A stretch of 11,129 nucleotides of DNA, taken from a virus (Duplodnaviria > Heunggongvirae > Uroviricota > Caudoviricetes). Both the position numbers and the translations under genes were made by a program. Position 1 is the stretch's first letter. Every line of letters begins with the position of its first letter. The notes beneath the pieces were generated by a model. It ran no database searches, was not told the origin of the DNA, and saw only the letters and a list, made by a program, of their open reading frames with translations. The stretch is taken from the IMG/VR virus record IMGVR_UViG_2617270947_000015. One strand, 5' to 3'. Shown piece by piece: positions 1 to 9,587 of this stretch.

Positions 1-327
1 TCACTTTTTCCAGAGGCGGTCGAACTCCGCCTTCGCAAAATAAGCGGAAGCCTGGCGAAGGATATCGTTACTGCGGCGCAGTTCACGATTTTCACGTTCC
101 AGCTCTTTCAGACGCTGACGTTCAGCGGTGGTGAGCCCTCCATCACCGCCCCCGGTATCCCGCTCATGCTGGCGAACCCAGACACGCAGAGTCTCCGGCG
201 TACAGCCAATCTTTGGAGCAATGGAACAAATTGTCGCCCATTGTGAGTCATATTCGCTCTGACTTTCCAGAACCATACGGACTGCCCGTTGACGGACTTC
301 GGGGGAAAAACGAGTATTTTTAGTCAT
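1..327 (-). CDS. IS3-family transposase OrfA (108 aa, HTH protein)
   Basis: Translation [21 protein letters not shown]...[32 protein letters not shown] has the typical IS3-family OrfA HTH plus leucine-zipper layout. It lies 54 bp inside the terminal inverted repeat. Confidence 0.85.
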
Positions 328-381
328 CCTGTTTACCTCTTTCTCAGGAAGTTTAGTCTCCAGGATTCCCGGGGCGGTTCA
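1..381 (-). mobile_element. Partial IS3-family insertion sequence (IS629/IS1203/IS3411-like); one terminus at 381, remainder off the left edge
   Basis: Read on the minus strand from 381 the sequence is TGAACCGCCCCGGGAATCCTGGAGACTAAACTTCC...AGGTAAACAGG-ATG, which matches my recollection of the IS629-type terminal inverted repeat followed directly by orfA. The orfA ORF is complete; orfB would lie beyond position 1. Confidence 0.8.
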
Positions 382-716
382 GGGGCTTCGTTCGTCCTGA
401 AAAACAGAATCTGCAAAATTTTGCCGAAATTATTCCGGTTATTTCCGGCCTTACTGGCGGGAGTGAAACCAATATTGTTAACGCCAGAGCGTTGCAGATG
501 TTTGATGATAAAAAGGGAGTAAATTTAACTTACACCCCTGACGGCAATCAGAATATGAGCATTATCTCTGAGTCAGGTTTCTACAAACTAATAAAAACAA
601 AAAGCGCCCCGTTGCCGGAGCGCCTTTGTGAACAATTAACCTACTGCGCAAAAAATGAATCTGAGCAGTGGGATTATATCAACCATGTGGAGAAGCGCCA
701 CAATTGCCGAATAACG

Positions 717-747
717 GGCAAAACAAAGGCCACCCGCTACGGTGGCC
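717..747 (-). terminator. Rho-independent terminator for the leftward small-gene operon
   Basis: Perfect 7-bp stem GGCCACC (728-734) / GGTGGCC (741-747) with a 6-nt loop. On the minus strand it is followed by TTTGTTTTG. It sits 80 bp downstream of the minus-strand ORF that ends at 827. Confidence 0.6.
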
Positions 748-826
748 CCTCGACACAAGCTACACGTTATCCCCAACGCATGAGCATTGCCAACAATGCC
801 ACATTTGCGGCTGGTGGGCAATGCAA

Positions 827-1000
827 TCAGTCTGGTTCAGTTCGTTGCCATACCTGCAATGAGCGCTTTTCCCTGTACTCTTTAAGGAATTGCTCAAGGG
901 CAAAAGCACATGGCGCGAATCTTTCTGATTCATGCTCTATCTTTCTGCGCCGTCTTTTCCGTGCCGGTGATAATGTTTTGGTCAATTCTTTATCGGTCAT
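827..1000 (-). CDS. Hypothetical small basic protein (57 aa from the second ATG)
   Basis: Lys/Arg/Glu-rich translation MTDKELTKTLSPARKRRRRKIEHESERF.... An AGGA lies about 9 nt upstream of the ATG at 1000; the ORF-track start at 1015 has no Shine-Dalgarno. It is second in the leftward operon and is followed by the terminator at 717-747. Confidence 0.5.
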   Translation of the reverse strand: MTDKELTKTLSPARKRRRRKIEHESERFAPCAFALEQFLKEYREKRSLQVWQRTEPD

Positions 1001-1057
1001 TGTGTTGTCCTGCATAGCAATGCGCCGTAGTTACTCACACCACGGCGCTGGTGATGG

Positions 1058-1237
1058 TTACTCCTGCTCTTTGGCCTTGCGGCGCTGGCGGCGTTTGATT
1101 TCGCCGCGCATGGCTGCGTTTATAAACTGTCCCGTGCTTTCGCCTTCTTCTTTCACGTTCTCCATGCCTTCAATAATTTCATGGGCAATACGTGCAGTTA
1201 CAGATTGTGATTTTGCATTCTTTGGACCCGTTGCCAT
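1058..1237 (-). CDS. Hypothetical small protein (59 aa); candidate regulator, first gene of the leftward operon
   Basis: The internal ATG at 1237 is preceded on the minus strand by GAGGGG at good spacing (GAGGGGTTAAAC-ATG). Translation is MATGPKNAKSQSVTARIAHEIIEGMENVKEEGESTGQFINAAMRGEIKRRQRRKAKEQE. It sits directly beside the operator-bearing divergent promoter region. The ORF-track start at 1276 is probably too long. Confidence 0.5.
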   Translation of the reverse strand: MATGPKNAKSQSVTARIAHEIIEGMENVKEEGESTGQFINAAMRGEIKRRQRRKAKEQE

Positions 1238-1257
1238 GTTTAACCCCTCATGTTTTT

Positions 1258-1339
1258 GGTGTAAGACAATATACACGAAAAAAAAATATTTTGAAGGGTT
1301 GACGTGTAAGACACCATTGTTTTACATTGTGTCTTACAC
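1258..1339. promoter_or_regulatory. Divergent promoter region with three copies of an 11-bp operator-like motif
   Basis: GGTGTAAGACA at 1258-1268, GTGTAAGACAC at 1304-1314 and its exact inverse GTGTCTTACAC at 1329-1339. Rightward candidate promoter: TTGACG (1299-1304) and TACATT (1323-1328), 18-bp spacer. Leftward candidate on the minus strand: TTCAAA and TATATT around 1270-1297. The motifs overlap the spacer or sit just downstream of the -10 of both promoters. Confidence 0.55.
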
Positions 1340-1436
1340 CTTATTGATGAAAGGCACAGAAACGACGAAACCCCGCACTGTAGGAGCAGTAACGGGGCTT
1401 CTAACCACCAACGATAGCAACAGTATCGAGGTAGCT

Positions 1437-1637
1437 ATGAGAAATCATACCACACACCCGAAAGGGCGGGACTCGCACAACCTGAATAAATACATCTGGC
1501 GTTTTATCGCCCTGAGCACGGCACAACCGCGCGTGATTACCATTGAGGCCACCAGCGAACAGGAAGCACGCCAGCAATCTCCGGCTGGCTGCGTGATGGT
1601 ATTTGCTGCCCGTATTCGTCAGGGGGTAGGCTTATGA
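1437..1637 (+). CDS. Hypothetical protein (66 aa), first gene of the rightward operon
   Basis: GAGGT Shine-Dalgarno 5 nt before the ATG at 1437. Translation MRNHTTHPKGRDSHNLNKYIWRFIALSTAQPRVITIEATSEQEARQQ.... Its stop overlaps the next start (ATGA). The long 492..1637 track ORF is in the same frame but its upstream part looks non-coding. Confidence 0.5.
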   Translation: MRNHTTHPKGRDSHNLNKYIWRFIALSTAQPRVITIEATSEQEARQQSPAGCVMVFAARIRQGVGL

Positions 1638-2309: not shown

Positions 2310-2609
2310 ATGAAACTTAAATATTCTGGCTTAACTGCCAGTGGCAAAACTCGCACTAAATTCATGCGCGGTGATATTTACCGCGACCAGTACGGCGGCA
2401 CGGTAATGATTAAGGGCGTGGAGGAACGGCGCGTAACCTACCGTCGTGAAGGCTACGAATATGATTGCGTGATGCCTGTTTATCAGTTCGATCGTGATTT
2501 TTCTCTGGTGCAGGCCGTACCGCGTAACGTGCCCACCAGCAGGGAGAAAGCACGCGCCAATATTCAGGAAATAAAAAAGATGCTTAACGTATTCAGGGGT
2601 AAGAAATGA
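2310..2609 (+). CDS. Hypothetical protein (99 aa) immediately upstream of and coupled to the primase gene
   Basis: GGAGA Shine-Dalgarno upstream; its stop overlaps the primase start at 2606. Translation MKLKYSGLTASGKTRTKFMRGDIYRDQYGGTVMIKGVEERRVTYRREGYEYD.... Confidence 0.6.
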   Translation: MKLKYSGLTASGKTRTKFMRGDIYRDQYGGTVMIKGVEERRVTYRREGYEYDCVMPVYQFDRDFSLVQAVPRNVPTSREKARANIQEIKKMLNVFRGKK

Positions 2610-4360
2610 AACTGGCACCGAACGTAAAAAAACAACCACGCGGAATAAAACACAAAGACACAGAGGTAATTATTTTCGCGGGTAGTGATGCGTGGTCACA
2701 TGCAAAACAGTGGCAGGAGCAGGACGGCCCCGCATCCGGCGATAATGTGCCGCCTGTGTGGCTTGGGCCAAATCAGCTTGCCGAACTTGATGCGCTGAAA
2801 ATTGTTCCGGATGGGAAAAAGCGCGTAAGGCTGTACCAGGCCGGAGAACTGGATTTAGTGGAGACCAAAAAGATTGGTCAGAAGCTGGCGGCGGCAGATA
2901 TTCAGGACGCAAATTTTTACCCTGATGGTATGCACGGTCAGAAGGTGGAGAACTGGCGCGAATATCTGGCCCGTGAGCGCCAGAATCTTTCTGATGGTCT
3001 GGTCATTGAGCTTCCGGTAAAGCAAAAGGCGCAACTTTCGCAGATGGCGGACAGTGAGCGCGCGCAGCTGCTTGCCGATCGCTTTGATGGCGTTTGCGTA
3101 CATCCTGAAAGTGAAATCGTTCACGTATGGCGCGGCGGGGTATGGTGTCCGGTCAGCACAATGGAACTTAGCCGCGAAATGGTGGCGATCTATTCAGAGC
3201 ACAGGGCCACTTTCAGCAAGCGCGTAATCAATAACGCCGTGGAAGCGTTAAAAGTTATTGCCGAACCAATGGGCGAGCCGTCCGGCGATTTGCTGCCGTT
3301 CGCCAATGGTGCGCTTGACCTGAAAACGGGGGAATTTTCCCCGCACACGCCGGAGAACTGGATCACCACGCACAACGGCATTGAGTACACGCCACCAGCA
3401 CCAGGGGAGAACATCCGCGATAACGCGCCAAACTTTCATAAATGGCTTAAGCACGCAGCCGGAAAAGACCCGCGCAAGATGATGCGTATATGTGCCGCGC
3501 TGTACATGATTATGGCGAACCGGTACGACTGGCAGATGTTTATTGAGGCCACCGGAGACGGCGGGAGCGGTAAAAGTACATTCACGCACATAGCCAGCCT
3601 TCTGGCAGGGAAACAGAACACGGTAAGCGCTGAAATGACATCGCTTGATGATGCTGGTGGACGTGCGCAGGTTGTCGGGAGTCGTCTTATCGTCCTAGCT
3701 GACCAGCCGAAATATACAGGCGAAGGAACGGGCATCAAGAAAATCACGGGCGGTGACCCCGTGGAAATTAACCCGAAATACGAAAAGCGTTTCACGGCTG
3801 TAATCAGGGCGGTGGTGCTGGCGACCAACAATAACCCGATGATATTCACCGAACGGGCCGAAGGTGTGGCACGTCGTCGCGTGATTTTCCGTTTCGACAA
3901 TATCGTCAGTGAGGCCGAAAAAGACAGGGAGCTACCGGAAAAGATCGCGGCTGAAATCCCTGTCATTATCCGCCGATTGCTGGCGAACTTTACCGACCCT
4001 GAGAAGGCACGGGCTTTACTACTGGAACAGCGTGACGGTGATGAAGCACTGGCAATAAAGCAACAGACGGATCCGGTTATTGAGTTTTGCCAGTTCCTGA
4101 ATTTTCTGGAGGAAGCGCGCGGCCTGATGATGGGGGGCGGTGGCGATTCAGTGAAGTACACGACCAGGAACAGCCTTTACCGCGTCTATCTGGCGTTTAT
4201 GGCATACGCAGGCAGGAGCAAACCGCTAAACGTAAATGACTTTGGAAAGGCTATGAAGCCTGCCGCAAAAGTTTACGGACATGAATATATTACGCGGAAA
4301 GTTAAGGGGGTAACGCAGACTAACGCAATAACAACAGACGAGTGCGACGCGTTTTTATAA
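2606..4360 (+). CDS. Satellite/phage replication protein: P4/D5-family primase-helicase-like NTPase (584 aa)
   Basis: Walker A GDGGSGKST and Walker B-like RLIVLAD motifs in the C-terminal half, with the overall D5_N / P4-family primase C-terminal (SF3 helicase-like) layout. It is followed immediately by an iteron array. The N-terminal ~300 aa are of unclear domain identity. Confidence 0.85.
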   Translation: MKLAPNVKKQPRGIKHKDTEVIIFAGSDAWSHAKQWQEQDGPASGDNVPPVWLGPNQLAELDALKIVPDGKKRVRLYQAGELDLVETKKIGQKLAAADIQDANFYPDGMHGQKVENWREYLARERQNLSDGLVIELPVKQKAQLSQMADSERAQLLADRFDGVCVHPESEIVHVWRGGVWCPVSTMELSREMVAIYSEHRATFSKRVINNAVEALKVIAEPMGEPSGDLLPFANGALDLKTGEFSPHTPENWITTHNGIEYTPPAPGENIRDNAPNFHKWLKHAAGKDPRKMMRICAALYMIMANRYDWQMFIEATGDGGSGKSTFTHIASLLAGKQNTVSAEMTSLDDAGGRAQVVGSRLIVLADQPKYTGEGTGIKKITGGDPVEINPKYEKRFTAVIRAVVLATNNNPMIFTERAEGVARRRVIFRFDNIVSEAEKDRELPEKIAAEIPVIIRRLLANFTDPEKARALLLEQRDGDEALAIKQQTDPVIEFCQFLNFLEEARGLMMGGGGDSVKYTTRNSLYRVYLAFMAYAGRSKPLNVNDFGKAMKPAAKVYGHEYITRKVKGVTQTNAITTDECDAFL

Positions 4361-4373
4361 TTTTTTGTAATTG

Positions 4374-4600
4374 CTGTCTACCCTGTCTACCTGAGTAAAG
4401 AAAAATACATTTAATTCAGTGCATTAAGTTAGGTAGACAGCCTTTTTTTACTGTCTACCCACTATCTACCCTCTCTACCTGATTTTACCTGAATCAGACA
4501 GGGAGGTAGACACGGGGTAGATAGTGGATAAAAGCACTCTACCCCGCTGAAAGCCGCGCCATTACTGGCATGAGGGCCACTAAGGTAGATAAGGTAGACA
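4374..4600. repeat. Iteron array, putative replication origin
   Basis: At least 11 copies of an 8-mer TGTCTACC / GGTAGACA (variants TATCTACC, GGTAGATA, CTCTACC) in both orientations, e.g. 4376-4383, 4384-4391, 4432-4439, 4452-4459, 4463-4470, 4505-4512, 4517-4524, 4584-4591, 4593-4600. Non-coding and directly downstream of the primase-helicase gene. Confidence 0.8.
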
Positions 4601-4648
4601 AGGGGAGGCACAACTCAAAACTTTTTAAACGAGGGGGTAAAAATAAAT

Positions 4649-4927
4649 ATGCACACTTCAGGGAAATTTAATAAATCACTCAAAAAACGCAGAGACAGAA
4701 CAGAACCGAAATATCGCGCGTTAGACATGACAGAGCACGCTTTAAAGGTGGCAATCAGAACGATAGACCGCCACGCGGGGGAAGGATACGCGAAAGCACA
4801 TCCCGAACTGATAAGCGCATTCATGACCACGACGGCGGCAAATTTTGCCACGCTGACAGAGCGGGAGATTGCCGAAGCGGAACAGGTAACAACCATCAAC
4901 GTTAAAACCGGAGAGGTGGAATCATGA
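4649..4927 (+). CDS. Hypothetical protein (92 aa)
   Basis: GAGGGGG upstream of the ATG at 4649. Its stop overlaps the SSB start (ATGA at 4924). Translation MHTSGKFNKSLKKRRDRTEPKYRALDMTEHALKVAIRTIDRHAGEGYAKAHPEL.... Confidence 0.55.
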   Translation: MHTSGKFNKSLKKRRDRTEPKYRALDMTEHALKVAIRTIDRHAGEGYAKAHPELISAFMTTTAANFATLTEREIAEAEQVTTINVKTGEVES

Positions 4928-5346
4928 CAGCACAGATAGCAGCTTACGGGCGGCTGGTGGACGACCCGCAGGTAAAACAGACCAGCAAGGGCACACCGAT
5001 GACGCTGGCGCGTATGGCGGTCCCCCTTCCGTGCAGCCAGGCAGATGACGGAACGGCGACGATGTGGTTATCCGTCCTGGCATTTGGCAGACAGGCCGAA
5101 GCACTGGAAAGGCACCGCAAGGGTGAACTCCTGAGCGTGGCGGGTAACATGCAGATCAGCCAGTGGACTGGGCAGAACGGAGAAACGCGGCAGGGCTGGC
5201 AGGTTATCGCAGACAGTGTAATCAGTGCGCGAACGGCGCGACTGGGCGGCAAAAAAGGTCAACAGGGCCAGGCTACTGACGCGCTGAACAGGGCAAAACA
5301 ACAGGCGGGGAATGATGATCCGTACGGGGATAACATACCGTTTTAA
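4924..5346 (+). CDS. ssb: Single-stranded DNA-binding protein (SSB-like, 140 aa)
   Basis: GGAGAGG Shine-Dalgarno. OB-fold-like core (LSVLAFGRQAEALERHRKGELLSVAGNMQISQWTGQNGETRQGWQVIADSV) followed by a Gly/Gln-rich linker and an acidic C-terminal tip DDPYGDNIPF, resembling the SSB DDDIPF tail. Confidence 0.8.
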   Translation: MTAQIAAYGRLVDDPQVKQTSKGTPMTLARMAVPLPCSQADDGTATMWLSVLAFGRQAEALERHRKGELLSVAGNMQISQWTGQNGETRQGWQVIADSVISARTARLGGKKGQQGQATDALNRAKQQAGNDDPYGDNIPF

Positions 5347-5362
5347 GCGACGAGAGACAGAA

Positions 5363-5384
5363 GCCGGAGCAATCCGGCTTTTTT
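5363..5384 (+). terminator. Rho-independent terminator after the replication operon
   Basis: Stem GCCGGA (5363-5368) / TCCGGC (5373-5378), loop GCAA, then TTTTTT (5379-5384). Nearly identical to the hairpin at 7804-7826. Confidence 0.7.
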
Positions 5385-5450
5385 ACGGGTCCTCCTGGCG
5401 GGGTGGGCCTGAACACGGGGCGGGAAGCGCGGAAAAAAGCGCATTTTTGT
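5385..5450 (+). other. Degenerate cos-like sequence (direct, diverged copy of the cos site at 7827-7900)
   Basis: ACGGGTCCT...ACGGGGCGGGAAGCGCGG...GCATTTTTG aligns with ACGGGTCCTTTCCGG...ACGGGGCGGCGACCTCGCGGGTTTTCGCTATTTATG of copy A, but with many substitutions inside the cosN-equivalent. Confidence 0.5.
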
Positions 5451-5565
5451 GATTTTATCGTCATCATCATCATGAGCGTAATTTATTGTTTTTAATTGTT
5501 TTGATGCAAAAAAGATGATGGTTGTGGTTAATTTTCGTTCGACATCTTTGCAGGCAGATAAAAAA

Positions 5566-5602
5566 GCCCGATAAGGTCAGAGGTGGCTTATCGGGCTTTT
5601 GC
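5566..5602. terminator. Strong hairpin flanked by A/T runs on both sides (potentially bidirectional terminator)
   Basis: Perfect 10-bp stem GCCCGATAAG (5567-5576) / CTTATCGGGC (5588-5597), preceded by AAAAAA and followed by TTTTG. It lies in a ~400-bp stretch with no convincing ORF. Confidence 0.6.
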
Positions 5603-5677
5603 ATATGAGGCTTTTTGGTGCACTGACACACATGAGCGGGATCATCATTTCATAATTTGCAACACAACTCAATATCA

Positions 5678-5726
5678 TTGCACAAAACGCAATCCTGATT
5701 ATAATCAGAGCTGGATGAACATCCAG
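5678..5726 (+). promoter_or_regulatory. Candidate promoter of the capsid operon with an operator palindrome at the predicted start
   Basis: TTGCAC (5678-5683), 16-bp spacer, perfect TATAAT (5700-5705). A perfect 7-2-7 palindrome CTGGATGAACATCCAG (5711-5726) follows immediately downstream of the -10. Confidence 0.5.
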
Positions 5727-5761
5727 TTATGATTTTTTAAGTCGAAGAGGAATTTCTTACT

Positions 5762-5968
5762 ATGGCTGAAGAGAAAAAAGGCGGTGTTTCGGTGTACATA
5801 AGCCCCGAAATCGTGGAGGTGCTCAAGCAGCGCCACAAAAAAAACTATGAGGCTGGCGTGGCGGCTGGACTGGATCCGCTGATGACGCCGGAGCCGTCGA
5901 TAGGTTCACTTGTACGCTCTTATTTACTTGCGGCGCTTGGGATGCATAAAAATTATGGGGGTGAATAA
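5762..5968 (+). CDS. Hypothetical small protein (68 aa), translationally coupled to the major capsid gene
   Basis: GAGGAA Shine-Dalgarno; its stop TAA overlaps the capsid gene ATG at 5968 (TAATGG). Translation MAEEKKGGVSVYISPEIVEVLKQRHKKNYEAGVAAGLDPLMTPEPSIGSLVRSYLLAALGMHKNYGGE. Confidence 0.55.
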   Translation: MAEEKKGGVSVYISPEIVEVLKQRHKKNYEAGVAAGLDPLMTPEPSIGSLVRSYLLAALGMHKNYGGE

Positions 5969-7023
5969 TGGCAGGCAAAGCAACGGCACTTAACACTAAC
6001 CAGCTTTTCATGTACCTGAATCGCGGGGATATTGCGGATTTTAAATTCAGCCCTCTGTTTACTACGCTGTTTTTCCCGAACGTGGCGACATTCAGCACGC
6101 AAAACATCATGCTGGATACCCTGGACATTGAAGAAGTCACCATGTCGGCGTTTTGTTCGCCTATGGTGGGTAGCCAGGTTCAGCGCGATAAAGGGTACGA
6201 AACCAGCACGATTAAACCTGGCTACATGAAGCCAAAGCACGAAATCGATCCAACGAAAACCATCATGCGCATGGCTGGAGAAGATCCGGCACAGCTTAAC
6301 GACCCTACCTATCGCCGTATGCGCCTGATTACTGGCAATATGCGCCGCCAGATAAACGCCATAAAAGCGCGCGTGGAATGGCTGGCGGTAAATGCGGTAA
6401 CGACCGGAAAAAACATCATTGAGGGCGAAGGCATAGAGCGCTATGAAATCGACTGGAAGATACCGGAAAAAAACATCATAGAGCAGGCCGACGGGAAAAA
6501 ATGGTCAGAGCAGGACAAAGAAACCCACGATCCAATCTATGATATCGAACTATACGCCGATCAGGCTGGTTGCCCCGCAAACGTCATGATTATGGGCGCT
6601 GAGGTATGGCGAACGTTACGCAGCTTTAAAAAATTCCGTGAGCTGTACGATCTTTCCCGTGGTTCAGAATCCGCCGCCGAACTGGCCTGTAAAAACCTGG
6701 GCGAAGTGGTGAGCTTTAAAGGCTATCTTGGTGATCTGGCCCTTATCGTCTATTCCGGCAAATACACTGACAGCGATGGTACCGAAAAATATTTCCTTGA
6801 GCCTGATTTGCTGGTCCTGGGCAACACCAACAATAAAGGGCTGGTGGCCTATGGTGCGATAATGGATCAGGAAGCGGTAAGAACGGGCGCAACACAAAAC
6901 ATGTTTTACCCGAAAAACTGGATTGAGGACGGCGATCCGGCGATTGAGTACGTGCAGACACACAGTGCACCGCAGCCGGTACCGGCAGATATTCGCAAAT
7001 TTGTTACCGTCAAAATTGGTTAA
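5968..7023 (+). CDS. Major capsid protein, lambda gpE-like (351 aa)
   Basis: Collinear similarity to lambda gpE as I recall it: FKFSPLF..LFF, TIKPGYMKPKHEIDP, EDPAQLNDPTYRRMR, KWSEQDKETHDP, LRSFK, SFKGYLGDLALIVYSGKY, LVLGNT, YPKNWIEDGDPA, with similar length. Strong GGGGGTGA Shine-Dalgarno. Confidence 0.85.
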   Translation: MAGKATALNTNQLFMYLNRGDIADFKFSPLFTTLFFPNVATFSTQNIMLDTLDIEEVTMSAFCSPMVGSQVQRDKGYETSTIKPGYMKPKHEIDPTKTIMRMAGEDPAQLNDPTYRRMRLITGNMRRQINAIKARVEWLAVNAVTTGKNIIEGEGIERYEIDWKIPEKNIIEQADGKKWSEQDKETHDPIYDIELYADQAGCPANVMIMGAEVWRTLRSFKKFRELYDLSRGSESAAELACKNLGEVVSFKGYLGDLALIVYSGKYTDSDGTEKYFLEPDLLVLGNTNNKGLVAYGAIMDQEAVRTGATQNMFYPKNWIEDGDPAIEYVQTHSAPQPVPADIRKFVTVKIG

Positions 7024-7035
7024 CGGGGGGATTCT

Positions 7036-7371
7036 ATGGACACTCCATACATTGAGTTATTTGCAGGCAGTCAGCAGGTCGCCACGACGCTGGTACATTT
7101 TGCCGCTGATGCTGGCGTTATTCAGGAATTTACCCCGCTGATGCTGGCAGACAATGGCGAGTTTAAGCCGTGGGATGGTCAGGAATCTGGCAAGGCTGTT
7201 TATCTGACCTCGTACCCTGTGGACACGTCAAAGCAGAAATCAGCACAGTGTTACAAGACGGGGATTTTCAATATTGCCGCCGTTAACTGGCCTGAGAGCG
7301 TCGACACCGATGCGAAAAAATGCGCCGCCTTTGCGGGTTCTGGCGTATCCGTTCAGCCGCTGGCCCGATAA
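7036..7371 (+). CDS. Head decoration protein, lambda gpD-like (111 aa)
   Basis: Same length class as lambda gpD with shared motifs TPLML, WDG, YKTGIF (lambda YKSGTF), WPE, DAKK.AAFAG. GGGGGG Shine-Dalgarno. Adjacent to the gpE-like gene. Confidence 0.75.
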   Translation: MDTPYIELFAGSQQVATTLVHFAADAGVIQEFTPLMLADNGEFKPWDGQESGKAVYLTSYPVDTSKQKSAQCYKTGIFNIAAVNWPESVDTDAKKCAAFAGSGVSVQPLAR

Positions 7372-7383
7372 GCAGGGGGAACG

Positions 7384-7797
7384 ATGGCAACGAATGAAAG
7401 CGTCATGACGCTACCGCTGGCGAGTAAATTTAAAGCCGAAGCGCGGGCAATGGCTGACAGAGGTTTATCAACCTACGAGGCCGTATATCAACTCAACAAA
7501 CTGGAAGAGCAGGACAAGCCGCGCGCTGATGCGATTATGGCGCTTCATGAACATAACGACTATCAGCCGCTGTTACGTGCAATGGCAAACGTGCCATGTA
7601 TTAGCGTCGATAATGCTCGTGAAATCCTGAACATGACCATAGAGCAGGAGCGCCCAAAGGTTGCGCCGGAGCTTACCGCAGCCTTTGAAAACTTTATGGA
7701 CATGCACAGCCCGAAAGCCGTATCACCCGGCATGGCATACGACGGCAGAAACCAGGGCGATGAAGGCGACGTCGATCGCATACTGAAAACCATCTGA
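7384..7797 (+). CDS. Hypothetical protein (137 aa), last gene of the capsid operon, immediately upstream of cos
   Basis: GGGGGAACG Shine-Dalgarno. Translation MATNESVMTLPLASKFKAEARAMADRGLSTYEAVYQLNKLEEQDKPRADAIMALHEHNDYQPLLRAMANVP.... The terminator hairpin and cos site follow directly. Confidence 0.6.
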   Translation: MATNESVMTLPLASKFKAEARAMADRGLSTYEAVYQLNKLEEQDKPRADAIMALHEHNDYQPLLRAMANVPCISVDNAREILNMTIEQERPKVAPELTAAFENFMDMHSPKAVSPGMAYDGRNQGDEGDVDRILKTI

Positions 7798-7803
7798 CAT
7801 AAG

Positions 7804-7826
7804 GCCGGAGAAATCCGGCTTTTTTT
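7804..7826 (+). terminator. Rho-independent terminator fused to the upstream edge of the cos site
   Basis: Stem GCCGGA (7804-7809) / TCCGGC (7814-7819), loop GAAA, then TTTTTTT (7820-7826). Confidence 0.7.
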
Positions 7827-7900
7827 ACGGGTCCTTTCCGGCATATGGACCCGTTACGGGGCGGCGACCTCGCGGGTTTTCGCTATTTATGACGTTTTTC
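7827..7900 (+). other. Lambda-type cos site (cosQ-cosN plus start of cosB), intact copy A
   Basis: ACGGGTCCTTTCCGG...GTTACG-GGGCGGCGACCTCGCGGGTTTTCGCTATTTATGA. The 12-nt lambda cohesive-end sequence GGGCGGCGACCT is exact at 7859-7870, and the flanks match the lambda right-end/left-end junction as I recall it. A Nu1-like gene follows, as in lambda. Confidence 0.85.
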
Positions 7901-7959: not shown

Positions 7960-8400
7960 ATGATTGATAAAGCTTGTTTTGTAAGTCAGCAGGAAATAGC
8001 TGAACATTTCAAGGTTAACAGAACCACTATTCGCGCATGGACCAAACAGGGGATGCCGTATCTTAATGCGGATCGCGGAAAGTCTGGCGGTTATCACATC
8101 GGGCATACATTGCTTTGGTCTTCAGGTAAAAGCCGTCTTGAGGCCATCAGATATCACGTAGAAACCAGTGCGCTGGAAAAAATTATGTTTGCCAGGCTGC
8201 TTTCATCTGAGCGTGACGAGTACTCCAGTGAAGAAACAGAACATCGATTTGATGAAGGTTTGCAGATTTACGGCTATTCACCGGAAGATGTGAGCAAGGC
8301 ACGAAATAAAATGGCTGGCTTTCTGGCTGGGTGGCGTCATGCCGTAAGCGTTCGCCGTGCCAGCATGGAACAATCAGTCGTTACAGAACAGCAAAGTTAA
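7960..8400 (+). CDS. Small-terminase-like DNA-binding protein (lambda Nu1-like winged HTH N-terminus, 146 aa); candidate cos-recognition / packaging-redirection factor
   Basis: N-terminus VSQQEIAEHFKVNRTTIRAWTKQGMPYLNADRGKSGG aligns with lambda Nu1 VNKKQLADIFGASIRTIQNWQEQGMPVLRGGGKGN. It sits about 60 bp downstream of cos, in the lambda Nu1 position, but no large-terminase gene follows. Confidence 0.7.
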   Translation: MIDKACFVSQQEIAEHFKVNRTTIRAWTKQGMPYLNADRGKSGGYHIGHTLLWSSGKSRLEAIRYHVETSALEKIMFARLLSSERDEYSSEETEHRFDEGLQIYGYSPEDVSKARNKMAGFLAGWRHAVSVRRASMEQSVVTEQQS

Positions 8401-8580: not shown

Positions 8581-8595
8581 TCCCTCTAAAAAAGC

Positions 8596-8663
8596 TCATA
8601 AATAGCGAAAAACCGCGAGGTCGCCGCCCCGTAACGGGCCATAATTCCAGGAAGGACCCGACG
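8596..8663 (-). other. Second lambda-type cos site in inverted orientation (copy C)
   Basis: Minus-strand reading is GGGTCCTTCCTGGAATTATGGCCCGTTACG-GGGCGGCGACCTCGCGGTTTTTCGCTATTTATGA. The reverse complement of the 12-mer, AGGTCGCCGCCC, is at 8618-8629. About 65 bp are near-identical to copy A, but this copy lacks the upstream terminator hairpin. Confidence 0.8.
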
Positions 8664-8693: not shown

Positions 8694-8975
8694 ATGACAG
8701 AAGCCGAAATACTGCGATTAATCCGCCGCGTTGCCGGAATCAGCCAGCAGCATGACGAACAGGCCACGCAGCCGGACAGCGTGACCGCTGAAAATTATGT
8801 GCGTGTTGTTGCTGAGGTGATGCGCCGTGATGGTATCCAGCTTAATGATGTTGATATGCGCGACATACGGATCCGCGTTCTGGAAATGCTGGCCTACAAT
8901 CGCCGCGTTGAACTGTATCGGGAGAAAGAAAAAATAACGTACCACTGGAAGAAGCCGGAGCGGTTGCGGCGGTAA
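8694..8975 (+). CDS. Hypothetical protein (93 aa)
   Basis: GGGGG Shine-Dalgarno 5 nt upstream of the ATG. Translation MTEAEILRLIRRVAGISQQHDEQATQPDSVTAENYVRVVAEVMRRDGIQLNDVDMRDIRIRVLEMLAYNRR.... Confidence 0.55.
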   Translation: MTEAEILRLIRRVAGISQQHDEQATQPDSVTAENYVRVVAEVMRRDGIQLNDVDMRDIRIRVLEMLAYNRRVELYREKEKITYHWKKPERLRR

Positions 8976-9587
8976 CTGGTTGATATTTTCGAAATTCGCC
9001 AGCGGCGAACATCGGGGAAACCAGCCTAACCCGTTGATATTTTCGGAAACCTCAATTTGAGGAAGTCGGCGCGGTAACTCGCTGAACTTAAAGCAAAGCG
9101 CAAAATTGCGCTTGCTGAATAATCATTATGATTACGCAGATGATTAAGGAATGACCGAAGGCGGAAATTCGCCTGTGGTTAATGGGGGAGTTGCAGATCT
9201 GCAACTCGACCATGAAACTACGGAAACTACCCGTAGTTTGGGTAGTAAGAGTAACACCCAGATTTTGGGGCTTACTCGTGATACCCAAATTTGGGGTATC
9301 GGTGGCAACCATAACGACTTTCGTTACGGTTGATGCTTTTACCCCATTGGGGGAAAGGTATTACGATAATCATAACACCTACCGAACAGGTAAAGCCCAC
9401 CAGCCTGATTAACGTTTAACCGGAAAAAAATTCCGGTAGGTGGGGATCCCCATATAGACATTAACGCCCCTCATGAATTGGTGCGCTTCCCCCTGGAAAG
9501 ATGATCCGCCTGTATATTTCTTGTGTCTATTTGTTCCACGTTGTTTCATACGGTGCACCGAACGGTGTAGTTAATGGTGTAGTCAAT
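8966..9587. repeat. Repeat- and palindrome-dense non-coding region between the last island ORF and phoQ (candidate att arm / regulatory region)
   Basis: Direct repeats GTTGATATTTTCG(A/G)AA at 8979-8994 and 9033-9049; GCGGTAACT at 8968-8976 and 9071-9079. Palindromes AAGCGCAA-aa-TTGCGCTT (9096-9113), GTTGCAGATCTGCAAC (9190-9205), AAACTAC-cc-GTAGTTT (9224-9239), CCGGAA-aaaaa-TTCCGG (~9420-9437), CGGTGCACCG (9551-9560). Tandem GGTGTAGTTAAT / GGTGTAGTCAAT (9564-9587). Confidence 0.5.

What the first reader, a model, noticed from the sequence alone, without database searches (positions are those of the whole stretch)
5762..7797. Satellite encodes its own lambda gpE-like major capsid and gpD-like decoration proteins but no portal, protease or large terminase
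The capsid-gene complement is partial. As far as I recall, classic PICIs and P4-like satellites remodel helper capsids without supplying a major capsid protein, whereas capsid-forming PICIs carry a fuller head and packaging set. An island supplying only the shell and cement proteins does not fit either cleanly. Gene order here (E-like before D-like) is also reversed relative to lambda.
Basis: partly seen in the sequence, partly recalled or inferred. Interest (0 to 1): 0.8.

Follow-up and report, generated by a model that had tools for sequence, protein, structure and literature searches.

The report
Capsid-gene cassette of a classical PICI
This stretch is the conserved capsid-gene cassette (shell protein, cement protein, short scaffold-like protein) of the well-studied E. 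coli phage satellite family typified by EcCICFT073. Its presence without portal, protease or large terminase is real but already published, and published deletions show it is not needed for transfer, so its function is a known open question rather than a new discovery.

Summary
Window 5968-7023 encodes a lambda gpE-family major capsid protein (Pfam 5.9e-52, 44% identical to gpE). Window 7036-7371 encodes a gpD/SHP-family decoration protein (1.3e-17). Neither the window nor attL/attR-bounded relatives contain a portal, protease or large terminase.

The island is an EcCICFT073-type classical PICI at the same roxA-phoQ site: RppA is 99% identical, and two cos sites carry exact lambda cosN. Its capsid (c1499) and decoration (c1500) genes were reported in 2018. 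Capsid genes occur in 21 of 29 reference Gram-negative PICIs and are a core component in SatelliteFinder. PDB 3BQW is a near-identical protein.

Published deletions of c1499 and c1500, and replacement of c1498-c1501 by cargo, left transfer and lambda interference intact. Only phage-sized DNA was packaged.

New here:
- c1501 (7384-7797) is a truncated phage-21-type scaffold.
- The capsid and decoration genes are under strong purifying selection (dN/dS about 0.1). The capsid gene is intact in 80 of 80 further loci.
- Satellite capsid proteins form a lineage separate from phage ones.

Function remains unproven. My best guess is conditional, helper-specific participation in shell assembly. Novelty: already known.

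The parts
5677..5737 (+). Conserved promoter-like element upstream of the cassette: palindrome ATTGC-N7-GCAAT, a perfect TATAAT at 5700-5705, then a hairpin at 5709-5728 with a T-run. Its function is inferred only.
   Evidence: Sequence read. Hairpin listed. The block is nearly invariant in 8 islands. No experimental support.
5762..5968 (+). c1498 homologue, 68 aa, first gene of the cassette. Its stop overlaps the capsid gene's start codon. Function unknown; possibly a small ribbon-helix-helix-like regulator.
   Evidence: PHROG 3255, 8.5e-46. No Pfam, NCBIfam or PADLOC hit. AF2 pLDDT 72 with two helices. Foldseek against PDB gives no significant match. dN/dS about 0.25.
5968..7023 (+). Major capsid protein of the lambda gpE family (c1499 homologue), satellite lineage.
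   Evidence: PDB 3BQW, 8e-236. The best match to any deposited phage is 47.6%. dN/dS 0.098. Intact in 80 of 80 IMG/VR loci.
7036..7371 (+). Head decoration (cement) protein of the gpD/SHP family (c1500 homologue).
   Evidence: dN/dS 0.10. Intact in 78 of 80 loci.
7384..7797 (+). c1501 homologue, 137 aa. It is a truncated phage-21-type scaffolding protein that keeps the last two repeat units and the C-terminal tail of gp6/Nu3-type scaffolds.
   Evidence: PHROG 53 C-terminus, 2.3e-9. BLASTP to phage 21 scaffold gp6, E=1e-10, 36% over residues 49-131. Gifsy-1 gpC C-terminus, 2e-8. Profile search hit to a 195-aa 21-type scaffold, 1.7e-8. No hit to lambda Nu3. AF2 model is all-helical but low confidence. 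dN/dS 0.31.
7804..7835 (+). Terminator-like hairpin with T-run that closes the cassette, followed by GGGTCCT (lambda cosQ-like, from memory). A near-identical copy lies at 5363-5394, upstream of the cassette.
   Evidence: direct repeat D3, 95%.
7828..7899 (+). cos1, with exact lambda cosN GGGCGGCGACCT at 7859-7870.
   Evidence: An 85-bp match to the cos region of lambdoid phages. cos1 is essential for transfer according to PMC6739421.
7960..8400 (+). RppA (c1503 homologue), the protein that redirects helper TerS to the island's cos site.
   Evidence: 99% identical to CFT073 RppA. PDB 6HLK RppC, 5.7e-31. Function from PMC6739421.
8589..8660 (-). cos2, the inverted copy of cos1, with exact cosN at 8618-8629.
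   Evidence: inverted repeat I1, 72 nt, 86%.
8694..8975 (+). 93-aa conserved island ORF of unknown function.
   Evidence: PHROG 1561, 3e-57. Present in 61 of 80 loci.
2310..5346 (+). Replication module: DUF4222 protein, D5_N/P4-type primase (2606-4360), ori-like repeats, a small ORF and SSB (4924-5346).
9564..9587 (+). attR core repeat; right end of the island.

Best explanation
Identity (about 0.97 confidence). The interval is the four-gene 'capsid morphogenesis' operon c1498-c1501 of an EcCICFT073-type classical cos PICI. It sits at the roxA-phoQ site of an E. coli chromosome.

The operon encodes:
- a 68-aa protein of unknown role;
- a full-length HK97-fold shell protein of the lambda gpE family;
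- a gpD/SHP-type cement protein;
- a truncated phage-21-type scaffold.

The element has no portal, protease, connector or large terminase. It is packaged by helper terminase, which RppA redirects to cos1.

Mechanism (inferred, about 0.35 confidence).
1. After helper induction the operon is expressed.
2. The satellite shell protein enters procapsid assembly nucleated on the helper's portal, and depends on the helper's protease.
3. The mini-scaffold c1501 keeps the C-terminal part that 21-type scaffold and protease share. This is presumably the shell-binding part, and it chaperones the satellite shell protein.
4. The satellite's own cement trimer locks three-fold sites formed by satellite subunits.

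The result would be shells built partly or wholly from satellite protein. The pay-off (head supply, stability or size) would be conditional on the helper and invisible with lambda or phi80 in the laboratory.

Shown: gene identities, gene content, selection, distribution, and dispensability in published tests. Inferred: expression timing, co-assembly and benefit.
For: Identity:
- Same locus and about 94% DNA identity to CFT073.
- RppA is 99% identical.
- cos1 and cos2 each carry exact lambda cosN.
- attR is present.
- c1499, c1500 and c1501 have the sizes and names given in PMC6092414.

Functional proteins rather than relics:
- dN/dS is 0.098 for the capsid gene and 0.10 for the decoration gene, across 7 islands with dS up to 0.3.
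- The capsid gene is intact in 80 of 80 IMG/VR loci, the decoration gene in 78 of 80, c1498 in 79 of 80, and c1501 in 69 of 74.
- The whole module is present at 91% identity or more in 597 of 5426 complete E. coli genomes.
- It is kept while the replication module (primase or RepA), the packaging module (RppA or TerS) and the att site vary.

An old satellite lineage:
- The best phage identity is 47.6%.
- Lambda and phage 21 capsid proteins are 62% identical to each other but only 41-47% to satellite ones.
- The two satellite clades share indels that the phage proteins lack.

A coherent shell set:
- A folded HK97 protein has been crystallised (3BQW).
- The element carries its own cement protein.
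- It carries its own scaffold C-terminal domain.

Precedents:
- Ccm forms the pentons of SaPIbov5 capsids.
- CpmB acts as a scaffolding protein that binds the phage capsid protein and redirects capsid size.
Against: - Deleting c1499 or c1500 changed neither transfer by the native helper nor interference with lambda.
- Islands with c1498-c1501 replaced by cas9 or melA are still transduced by phi80.
- All DNA packaged with lambda was phage-sized, and no monomer band was seen with the native helper.
- Island length of 11.2 kb, four copies making 44.9 kb, fits multimer packaging in full-size helper heads (PMC10530653 discussion).
- I found no data that the satellite proteins are expressed or are present in particles.
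- c1501 is absent from the divergent satellite clade, so it is not universally required.
Confidence: 0.45

Rival explanations
1. Insurance or complementation. The cassette supplies shell, cement and scaffold so that the satellite can still be mobilised when the helper's own head genes are missing, interrupted, mutated or poorly matched. Examples are defective prophages, or helpers whose E gene is split by an embedded satellite.
For: - Relatives of this satellite family sit inside the helper's gpE gene (L006, L014, L016; PMC10111431) or inside the portal gene (L071, L072, L081).
- The cassette supplies the shell proteins (capsid and decoration) needed in the largest copy number.
- Strong purifying selection despite being dispensable with intact laboratory helpers.
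Against: - Excision of an embedded satellite restores the helper gene (PMC10111431).
- Most islands, including this one, sit at chromosomal sites far from any helper head gene.
- There is no test of complementation.
- At 41-47% identity to helper capsid proteins, compatibility with the helper's portal and protease is uncertain.
Confidence: 0.2
2. Interference or defence. The capsid homologue, with or without the mini-scaffold, co-assembles with the shell protein of other lambdoid phages and poisons their head assembly. It would act as a second line of interference beside RppA.
For: - Satellite capsid homologues can block phage reproduction (Ccm).
- PICIs commonly carry interference and defence functions.
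- The published c1499 and c1500 deletions were tested only in an rppA-positive background, where RppA alone blocks lambda.
Against: - No PADLOC match.
- The c1503 (rppA) deletion was used to show relief of interference with lambda, which leaves little room for a strong second block against lambda.
- A dedicated cement protein is hard to explain for a pure poison.
Confidence: 0.15
3. A new intermediate class. The island always builds its own shell and steals only the portal, protease, terminase and tail. It would be a 'shell-only' capsid-forming satellite distinct from both classical PICIs and cf-PICIs.
For: - The complement is partial: shell, cement and scaffold-like genes are present, while portal, protease and TerL are absent.
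- The capsid lineage is separate from that of phages.
Against: - The cassette can be deleted entirely without loss of transduction, so particles can be made wholly from helper proteins.
- The architecture is that of the prototype classical PICI, not a separate class.
Confidence: 0.08
4. A decaying remnant of a lambdoid head module with no present function.
For: No phenotype was found for c1499 in the published work.
Against: - dN/dS is about 0.1.
- Gene lengths are identical and the ORFs are intact in nearly all of 87 loci examined.
- The module is conserved across genera at 52-69% identity with the same gene order.
Confidence: 0.04

Closest known systems
EcCICFT073, the prototype Gram-negative classical PICI (Fillol-Salom 2018, 2019)
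   Same: - Same chromosomal site (roxA-phoQ).
- Same gene order: primase, SSB, c1498-c1501, cos1, rppA, cos2, orf93, attR.
- Capsid protein 98%, decoration protein 99%, RppA 99% and c1501 90% identical.
   Different: - The window has an IS3-family element where int and alpA would lie, so these genes are not in the window.
- It lacks the PerC gene.
- Its c1498 (68% identity) and SSB (72% identity) are different alleles.
SaPIbov5 Ccm (Carpena 2016; Hawkins 2021)
   Same: A satellite-encoded HK97-fold homologue of the helper's capsid protein, in a cos-packaged island that lacks portal, protease and TerL.
   Different: - Ccm is 23% identical to its helper's capsid protein. It forms pentons and converts prolate heads to small isometric ones.
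- Here no size change was seen with lambda, identity to helper proteins is 41-47%, and a cement protein and a scaffold fragment accompany the capsid gene.
SaPI1 CpmB, an alternative internal scaffold
   Same: A small helical satellite protein. c1501 keeps the C-terminal part of a helper-type scaffold. CpmB is described as a scaffolding protein that binds the phage capsid protein.
   Different: No sequence relationship. CpmB's size-redirecting role is demonstrated; c1501's role is untested.
P4 Psu and Sid
   Same: A satellite that encodes its own capsid decoration protein (Psu) and a P4-type primase (from memory; the P4 components are listed).
   Different: No sid, psu or delta homologues are present. 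P4 supplies no shell protein.
Capsid-forming PICIs (EcCIEDL933; Alqurainy 2023)
   Same: Related int, alpA and rep modules, and a satellite-encoded capsid protein.
   Different: - cf-PICIs also encode portal, protease, head-tail connectors, HNH, TerS and TerL, and make their own small capsids.
- None of these is present here.
- PICI and cf-PICI capsid genes separate almost perfectly in phylogeny.
Helper-embedded PICI 11capE (Mageeney et al. 2023)
   Same: The same satellite family, with the capsid and decoration pair in the same order. Found again here in E. coli, Cedecea and Kosakonia.
   Different: - Its capsid protein is only 52-56% identical.
- It has no c1498 or c1501.
- It is integrated in the helper's gpE gene rather than at a chromosomal site.
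Head module of phage 21, Gifsy-1 and lambda (scaffold-D-E)
   Same: Homologous shell, cement and scaffold proteins.
   Different: - The order is reversed (E-D-scaffold).
- The scaffold is truncated and detached from the protease.
- No portal, protease or terminase is present.

Membership tests
Classical enterobacterial PICI (EcCICFT073 type) | Tyrosine integrase and AlpA regulator at the left end | tested here: inconclusive
   Not in the window. An IS3-family orfA occupies 1-327, and homology to intact islands starts at 382, about 84 bp downstream of alpA in CFT073. Both genes are present in all intact relatives examined.
Classical enterobacterial PICI (EcCICFT073 type) | Own primase or replicase with an adjacent origin | tested here: met
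   D5_N/DUF5906/Pox_D5 primase at 2606-4360, with ori-like repeats at 4383-4530.
Classical enterobacterial PICI (EcCICFT073 type) | Capsid-morphogenesis gene (Phage_cap_E type) | tested here: met
   Listed as a core component in PMC10085698.
Classical enterobacterial PICI (EcCICFT073 type) | Packaging hijack: TerS homologue or Rpp, plus a helper-type cos site | tested here: met
   RppA 99% identical. PDB 6HLK, 5.7e-31. Exact lambda cosN twice.
Classical enterobacterial PICI (EcCICFT073 type) | No other virion, lysis or tail genes; size about 10-15 kb; bounded by att repeats | tested here: met
   No portal, protease, TerL, connector or tail hits. attR at 9564-9587. The CFT073 island is 11,219 bp.
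Classical enterobacterial PICI (EcCICFT073 type) | Induction and high-frequency transfer by a helper phage | not testable with these tools
   Shown for EcCICFT073 itself in PMC6092414 and PMC6739421. This copy may be immobile if int and alpA are lost.
Capsid-forming PICI (cf-PICI) | Own portal, prohead protease, head-tail adaptor and connector, and large terminase | tested here: not met
   No hits in the window or in att-bounded relatives. In 76 of 80 further loci none is found. In the other 4 the genes belong to a prophage in which the island is embedded.
P4-like satellite | sid, psu, delta and epsilon together with the alpha primase | tested here: not met
   Only a P4-family primase is present. 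No Pfam or PHROG hit to Sid, Psu or Delta.
Lambda gpE major capsid protein family (PF03864, HK97 fold) | Full-length match to the family profile and to solved members | tested here: met
   PF03864, 5.9e-52, profile positions 16-328 of 329. Lambda 7VI9, 1e-82, and 3BQW, 8e-236.
Lambda gpD / phage 21 SHP decoration family (PF02924) | Match to the family profile and to solved trimeric cement proteins | tested here: met
   PF02924, 1.3e-17. 1TD0, 1.5e-13, and 1C5E, 3.5e-9. Trimer formation and capsid binding were not tested.
Phage 21 gp6 / Nu3-type internal scaffold | Repeat units plus the C-terminal tail shared with the prohead protease | tested here: met
   The last two repeats and the tail align, with profile E=1.7e-8. 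The N-terminal third of phage scaffolds is absent, and there is no detectable similarity to lambda Nu3 itself.
Ccm-like capsid size redirection | The satellite capsid homologue is required for small capsids and blocks the helper | not testable with these tools
   Published tests on EcCICFT073 were negative with lambda and the native helper: only phage-sized DNA was packaged, and the deletions had no effect. Other helpers have not been tested.

The most novel reading that the evidence does not exclude
With the right helper (for example a 21- or Gifsy-type phage, or a helper with compromised head genes), the cassette would build satellite-specific shells on the helper's portal. The shells would be made of satellite capsid protein, be locked by satellite decoration protein, and be templated by the c1501 mini-scaffold. 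They might be of smaller T number: by volume scaling, a T=3 lambda-like shell would hold about 13.6 kb, that is one 11.2-kb island. Classical enterobacterial PICIs would then be conditional 'shell-forming' satellites, an evolutionary intermediate between capsid remodellers and cf-PICIs. The published negative results would reflect the choice of helpers.
Probability: 0.2. Interest if true: 0.6.

Novelty: already known. Interest (0 to 1): 0.25.

Why it matters
The cassette is carried by about one in nine complete E. coli genomes, including O157:H7 and uropathogenic strains. It is among the most conserved parts of a family of islands that moves virulence genes. Yet its function is still unassigned seven years after it was first noted.

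Knowing whether satellite shell proteins enter transducing particles would affect three things:
- models of how satellites evolve towards capsid autonomy;
- the interpretation of 'major capsid protein' hits in prophage and virome annotation, since IMG/VR holds many of these islands as viral contigs;
- the engineering of PICI-based delivery vehicles, which currently discard this cassette as cargo space.

As a discovery claim, however, the finding adds nothing to the literature. The exception is the scaffold assignment of c1501.

Tried and rejected
1. Idea: the published 'no phenotype' results were obtained in a background where the tetA marker had already broken c1501. Rejected. The primer arm in Table S6 ends with the c1501 stop codon, so the marker lies just downstream.

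2. Idea: c1501 is kept only in satellites whose capsid N-arm is 21-like, while c1501-less satellites have a lambda-like N-arm. Rejected. The N-arms of both satellite clades differ from both phages and share a satellite-specific 3-residue insertion.

3. c1501 against lambda gpC/Nu3 by BLASTP: no similarity. The homology is to the 21/Gifsy-type scaffold only.

4. AF2 model of c1501: pLDDT 48, helical, not usable for fold search.

5. c1498: no Pfam, NCBIfam or PADLOC hit. The AF2 model (pLDDT 72) has no significant PDB match, so the ribbon-helix-helix idea remains a guess. It shows no similarity to lambda gpW, which has the same length (no hit).

6. PADLOC scan of ten island proteins for defence systems: nothing relevant.

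7. First genome-contig scan with the single capsid protein: no locus. The alignment-based scan gave only 4 loci.

8. Literature searches for a later paper assigning a function to the classical PICI capsid genes found none in the searchable library.
Full report
**What is in the interval**

ORF listing and profile searches show four tightly packed, same-strand genes.
- 5762-5968: 68 aa, PHROG 3255, function unknown.
- 5968-7023: 351 aa, Pfam Phage_cap_E at 5.9e-52, PHROG 29 major head protein at 3e-108.
- 7036-7371: 111 aa, Pfam HDPD at 1.3e-17, PHROG 49 head decoration.
- 7384-7797: 137 aa, PHROG 1999, with a weak match to the C-terminal end of PHROG 53, a head maturation protease.

The capsid protein is 44% identical to lambda gpE over 327 residues. 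It matches the solved lambda capsid protein 7VI9 at 1e-82. The decoration protein matches phage 21 SHP (1TD0, 1.5e-13) and lambda gpD (1C5E, 3.5e-9).

The E-before-D order is the reverse of lambda's, where D lies at 5747-6079 and E at 6135-7160.

**What the element is**

The whole window matches E. coli chromosomes between roxA and phoQ. Strain CFT073 is among them, at about 94% identity. This locus is the published island EcCICFT073.

The gene after the cassette (7960-8400) is 99% identical to CFT073 RppA. It matches the RppC crystal structure 6HLK at 5.7e-31.

Exact lambda cosN (GGGCGGCGACCT) occurs at 7859-7870 and, inverted, at 8618-8629. Both copies lie inside a 72-nt inverted repeat that flanks rppA. 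This corresponds to the published cos1 and cos2 (PMC6739421).

The att core repeat lies at window 9564-9587. In CFT073 the two copies are 11,219 bp apart.

The left end of the window is an IS3-family orfA. Homology to intact islands begins at 382, just downstream of where alpA lies in CFT073. The integrase and alpA are therefore not in the window.

**Absence of the other head genes**

tblastn with lambda and phage 21 TerL, portal, protease, W, FI, FII, Z and U finds nothing in the window or in three intact, att-bounded relatives.

Among 80 further loci from IMG/VR, 76 have none of these genes. In the other four, the genes belong to a lambdoid prophage whose portal gene is interrupted by the island (L071, L072, L081) or which lies beside it (a TerL fragment next to the island in L074).

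**What was already known**

Fillol-Salom et al. [quoted passage not shown] Their findings were as follows.
- Deleting either gene did not restore lambda plaque formation.
- Deleting either gene did not change transfer by the resident helper.
- All packaged DNA was phage-sized.

Their supplementary table lists c1499 at 351 aa, c1500 at 111 aa and c1501 at 137 aa, the last without annotation.

The review PMC6893505 notes the capsid homologue and the normal-sized capsids. PMC10111431 states that a major capsid gene is present in 21 of 29 reference Gram-negative PICIs and is not required for transfer. SatelliteFinder treats 'capsid morphogenesis' as one of five core PICI components, and 97% of complete elements are in E. 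coli (PMC10085698).

Synthetic islands with the entire c1498-c1501 block replaced by cas9 or melA are still transduced by a phi80 cos mutant (PMC10530653, PMC10460865). PDB 3BQW, 'putative capsid protein of prophage', 351 residues, matches the window protein at 8e-236. It has served as a reference structure for the family.

**What I could add**

(a) The third gene is scaffold-like.
- c1501 residues 49-131 align to the C-terminal 85 residues of the phage 21 scaffolding protein gp6 (E=1e-10, 36% identity).
- They also align to the C-terminus of the Gifsy-1 protease/scaffold protein (2e-8).
- They do not align to lambda Nu3.
- A profile search of 1.84 billion representative proteins gave only 13 hits. 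The distant ones are 195-270-aa 21-type scaffold ORFs with the repeated IMALxEAxGRExLA...PGMT...A unit and the FExFMxxHSP tail.
- c1501 corresponds to the last two repeats plus the tail.
- This also explains NCBI's name 'phage head-tail connector protein'. It echoes the old name of phage 21 gp5, 'head-tail preconnector', whose C-terminal part is the scaffold.
- I found no paper in the library that makes this assignment.

(b) Selection. Nei-Gojobori dN/dS across seven islands gave medians of 0.098 for the capsid gene, 0.10 for decoration, 0.31 for c1501 and 0.25 for c1498. dS reached 0.3, and all ORFs were intact and of identical length.

(c) Prevalence and modularity.
- The 2-kb cassette is present at 91% identity or more in 597 of 5426 complete E. 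coli genomes.
- It occurs with either a primase or a RepA replication gene, with either RppA or a TerS, and at different att sites.
- Capsid and decoration proteins are 94.6-99% identical across the intact islands compared (L001, L009, L011). Their neighbours, such as SSB and c1498, drop to about 70%.

(d) Lineage.
- No deposited phage capsid protein exceeds 47.6% identity.
- Relatives at 52-69% identity occur in Salmonella, Edwardsiella, Lelliottia, Serratia, Cedecea, Kluyvera, Kosakonia and Superficieibacter.
- In the five divergent loci I examined, the order is again E then D and there are no head genes of the island's own.
- Lambda and phage 21 capsid proteins are 62% identical to each other but 41-47% to the satellite ones. 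The two satellite clades share indels that the phage proteins lack.
- The satellite capsid gene is therefore an old, vertically kept satellite lineage, not a recent capture from a helper.

**How it most likely works**

The data exclude a relic and exclude an obligatory role in particle formation. What remains is a conditional function.

I favour participation in shell assembly on the helper's portal, for these reasons.
- The element keeps a complete, crystallisable HK97 subunit.
- It keeps a matching cement protein, which is only useful if three-fold sites made of satellite subunits exist.
- In this clade it keeps the C-terminal scaffold segment that 21-type scaffold and protease share, and which is therefore the likely shell-targeting part.

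Ccm (pentons of SaPIbov5 capsids) and CpmB (a satellite scaffolding protein that binds the phage capsid protein) show that both kinds of part can work in satellites.

The weaknesses are plain. No expression or particle-composition data exist. No size change was seen with lambda. The 11.2-kb island length fits tetramer packaging in full-size heads.

I put this reading at about 0.35 and the identity of the element at about 0.97. The rivals are complementation of defective or interrupted helper head genes (0.2), poisoning of other lambdoid phages (0.15), an obligate 'shell-only' capsid-former (0.08) and a relic (0.04).

**Verdict**

The finding itself is already known, and it is the canonical organisation of classical enterobacterial PICIs.

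The residual interest lies in the unexplained strong conservation of a dispensable cassette, and in the scaffold assignment of c1501, which sharpens the experiments that could settle its function.

Noticed in passing
window 1-381: An IS3-family transposase orfA (1-327, minus strand) abuts the island. Homology to intact islands starts at 382, about 84 bp downstream of alpA in CFT073. This copy has therefore lost int and alpA, or is separated from them, and may be immobile.
   Followed up: partly
window 7828-7899 and 8589-8660: A 72-nt inverted repeat (86% complementary), each arm holding an exact lambda cosN, flanks rppA. It corresponds to the published cos1 and cos2.
   Followed up: yes
window 5363-5394 and 7804-7835: A near-identical terminator hairpin followed by TTTTTTACGGGTCCT occurs on both sides of the capsid operon. 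The GGGTCCT resembles lambda cosQ (from memory). This could be a vestigial third cos end or a recombination scar that lets the cassette move as a unit.
   Followed up: no
window 5677-5737: A promoter-like block conserved in 8 islands: palindrome ATTGC-N7-GCAAT, a perfect TATAAT, then a hairpin with T-run immediately before the c1498 ribosome-binding site. A promoter-proximal terminator would suggest antitermination control, but this is untested.
   Followed up: partly
window 7384-7797; proteins P0027, P0030, P0031: Some E. coli islands carry a 93-aa c1501 with an in-frame 44-residue deletion between two ARAMA motifs. This removes one scaffold repeat.
   Followed up: no
L006, L014, L016 (inside the helper gpE gene); L071, L072, L081 (inside the helper portal gene); L074 (next to TerL): Relatives of this island family are integrated inside late genes of lambdoid prophages, in E. 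coli, Cedecea and Kosakonia. This matches the published helper-embedded PICIs. Three of five divergent-clade loci split the helper's own capsid gene while carrying a satellite capsid gene.
   Followed up: partly
window 5347-5761, compared with L001 11163-11411: The window lacks the PerC-family regulator gene that lies between ssb and c1498 in the CFT073 and O157:H7 islands.
   Followed up: no
window 4383-4530: Short inverted repeats (GGTAGACAG and GGGTAGATAGTGG types) just downstream of the primase gene, where PICI replication origins are described.
   Followed up: no
protein P0076 (463 aa): One database protein carries both PF03864 and PF02924, a capsid-decoration fusion in E-then-D order. 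It is probably a read-through or sequencing artefact of a satellite cassette.
   Followed up: no
IMG/VR loci L017-L096: At least 80 IMG/VR 'viral' contigs, mostly 6-14 kb, are in fact this PICI cassette with its island. Satellite capsid genes therefore inflate viral contig catalogues.
   Followed up: partly
window 492-1637: A 381-aa TTG-initiated ORF spans a region that in relatives holds small genes and pseudogenes (BRO-N fragment, YlcI/YnfO on the minus strand, Icd-like). It is most likely not a real gene.
   Followed up: no
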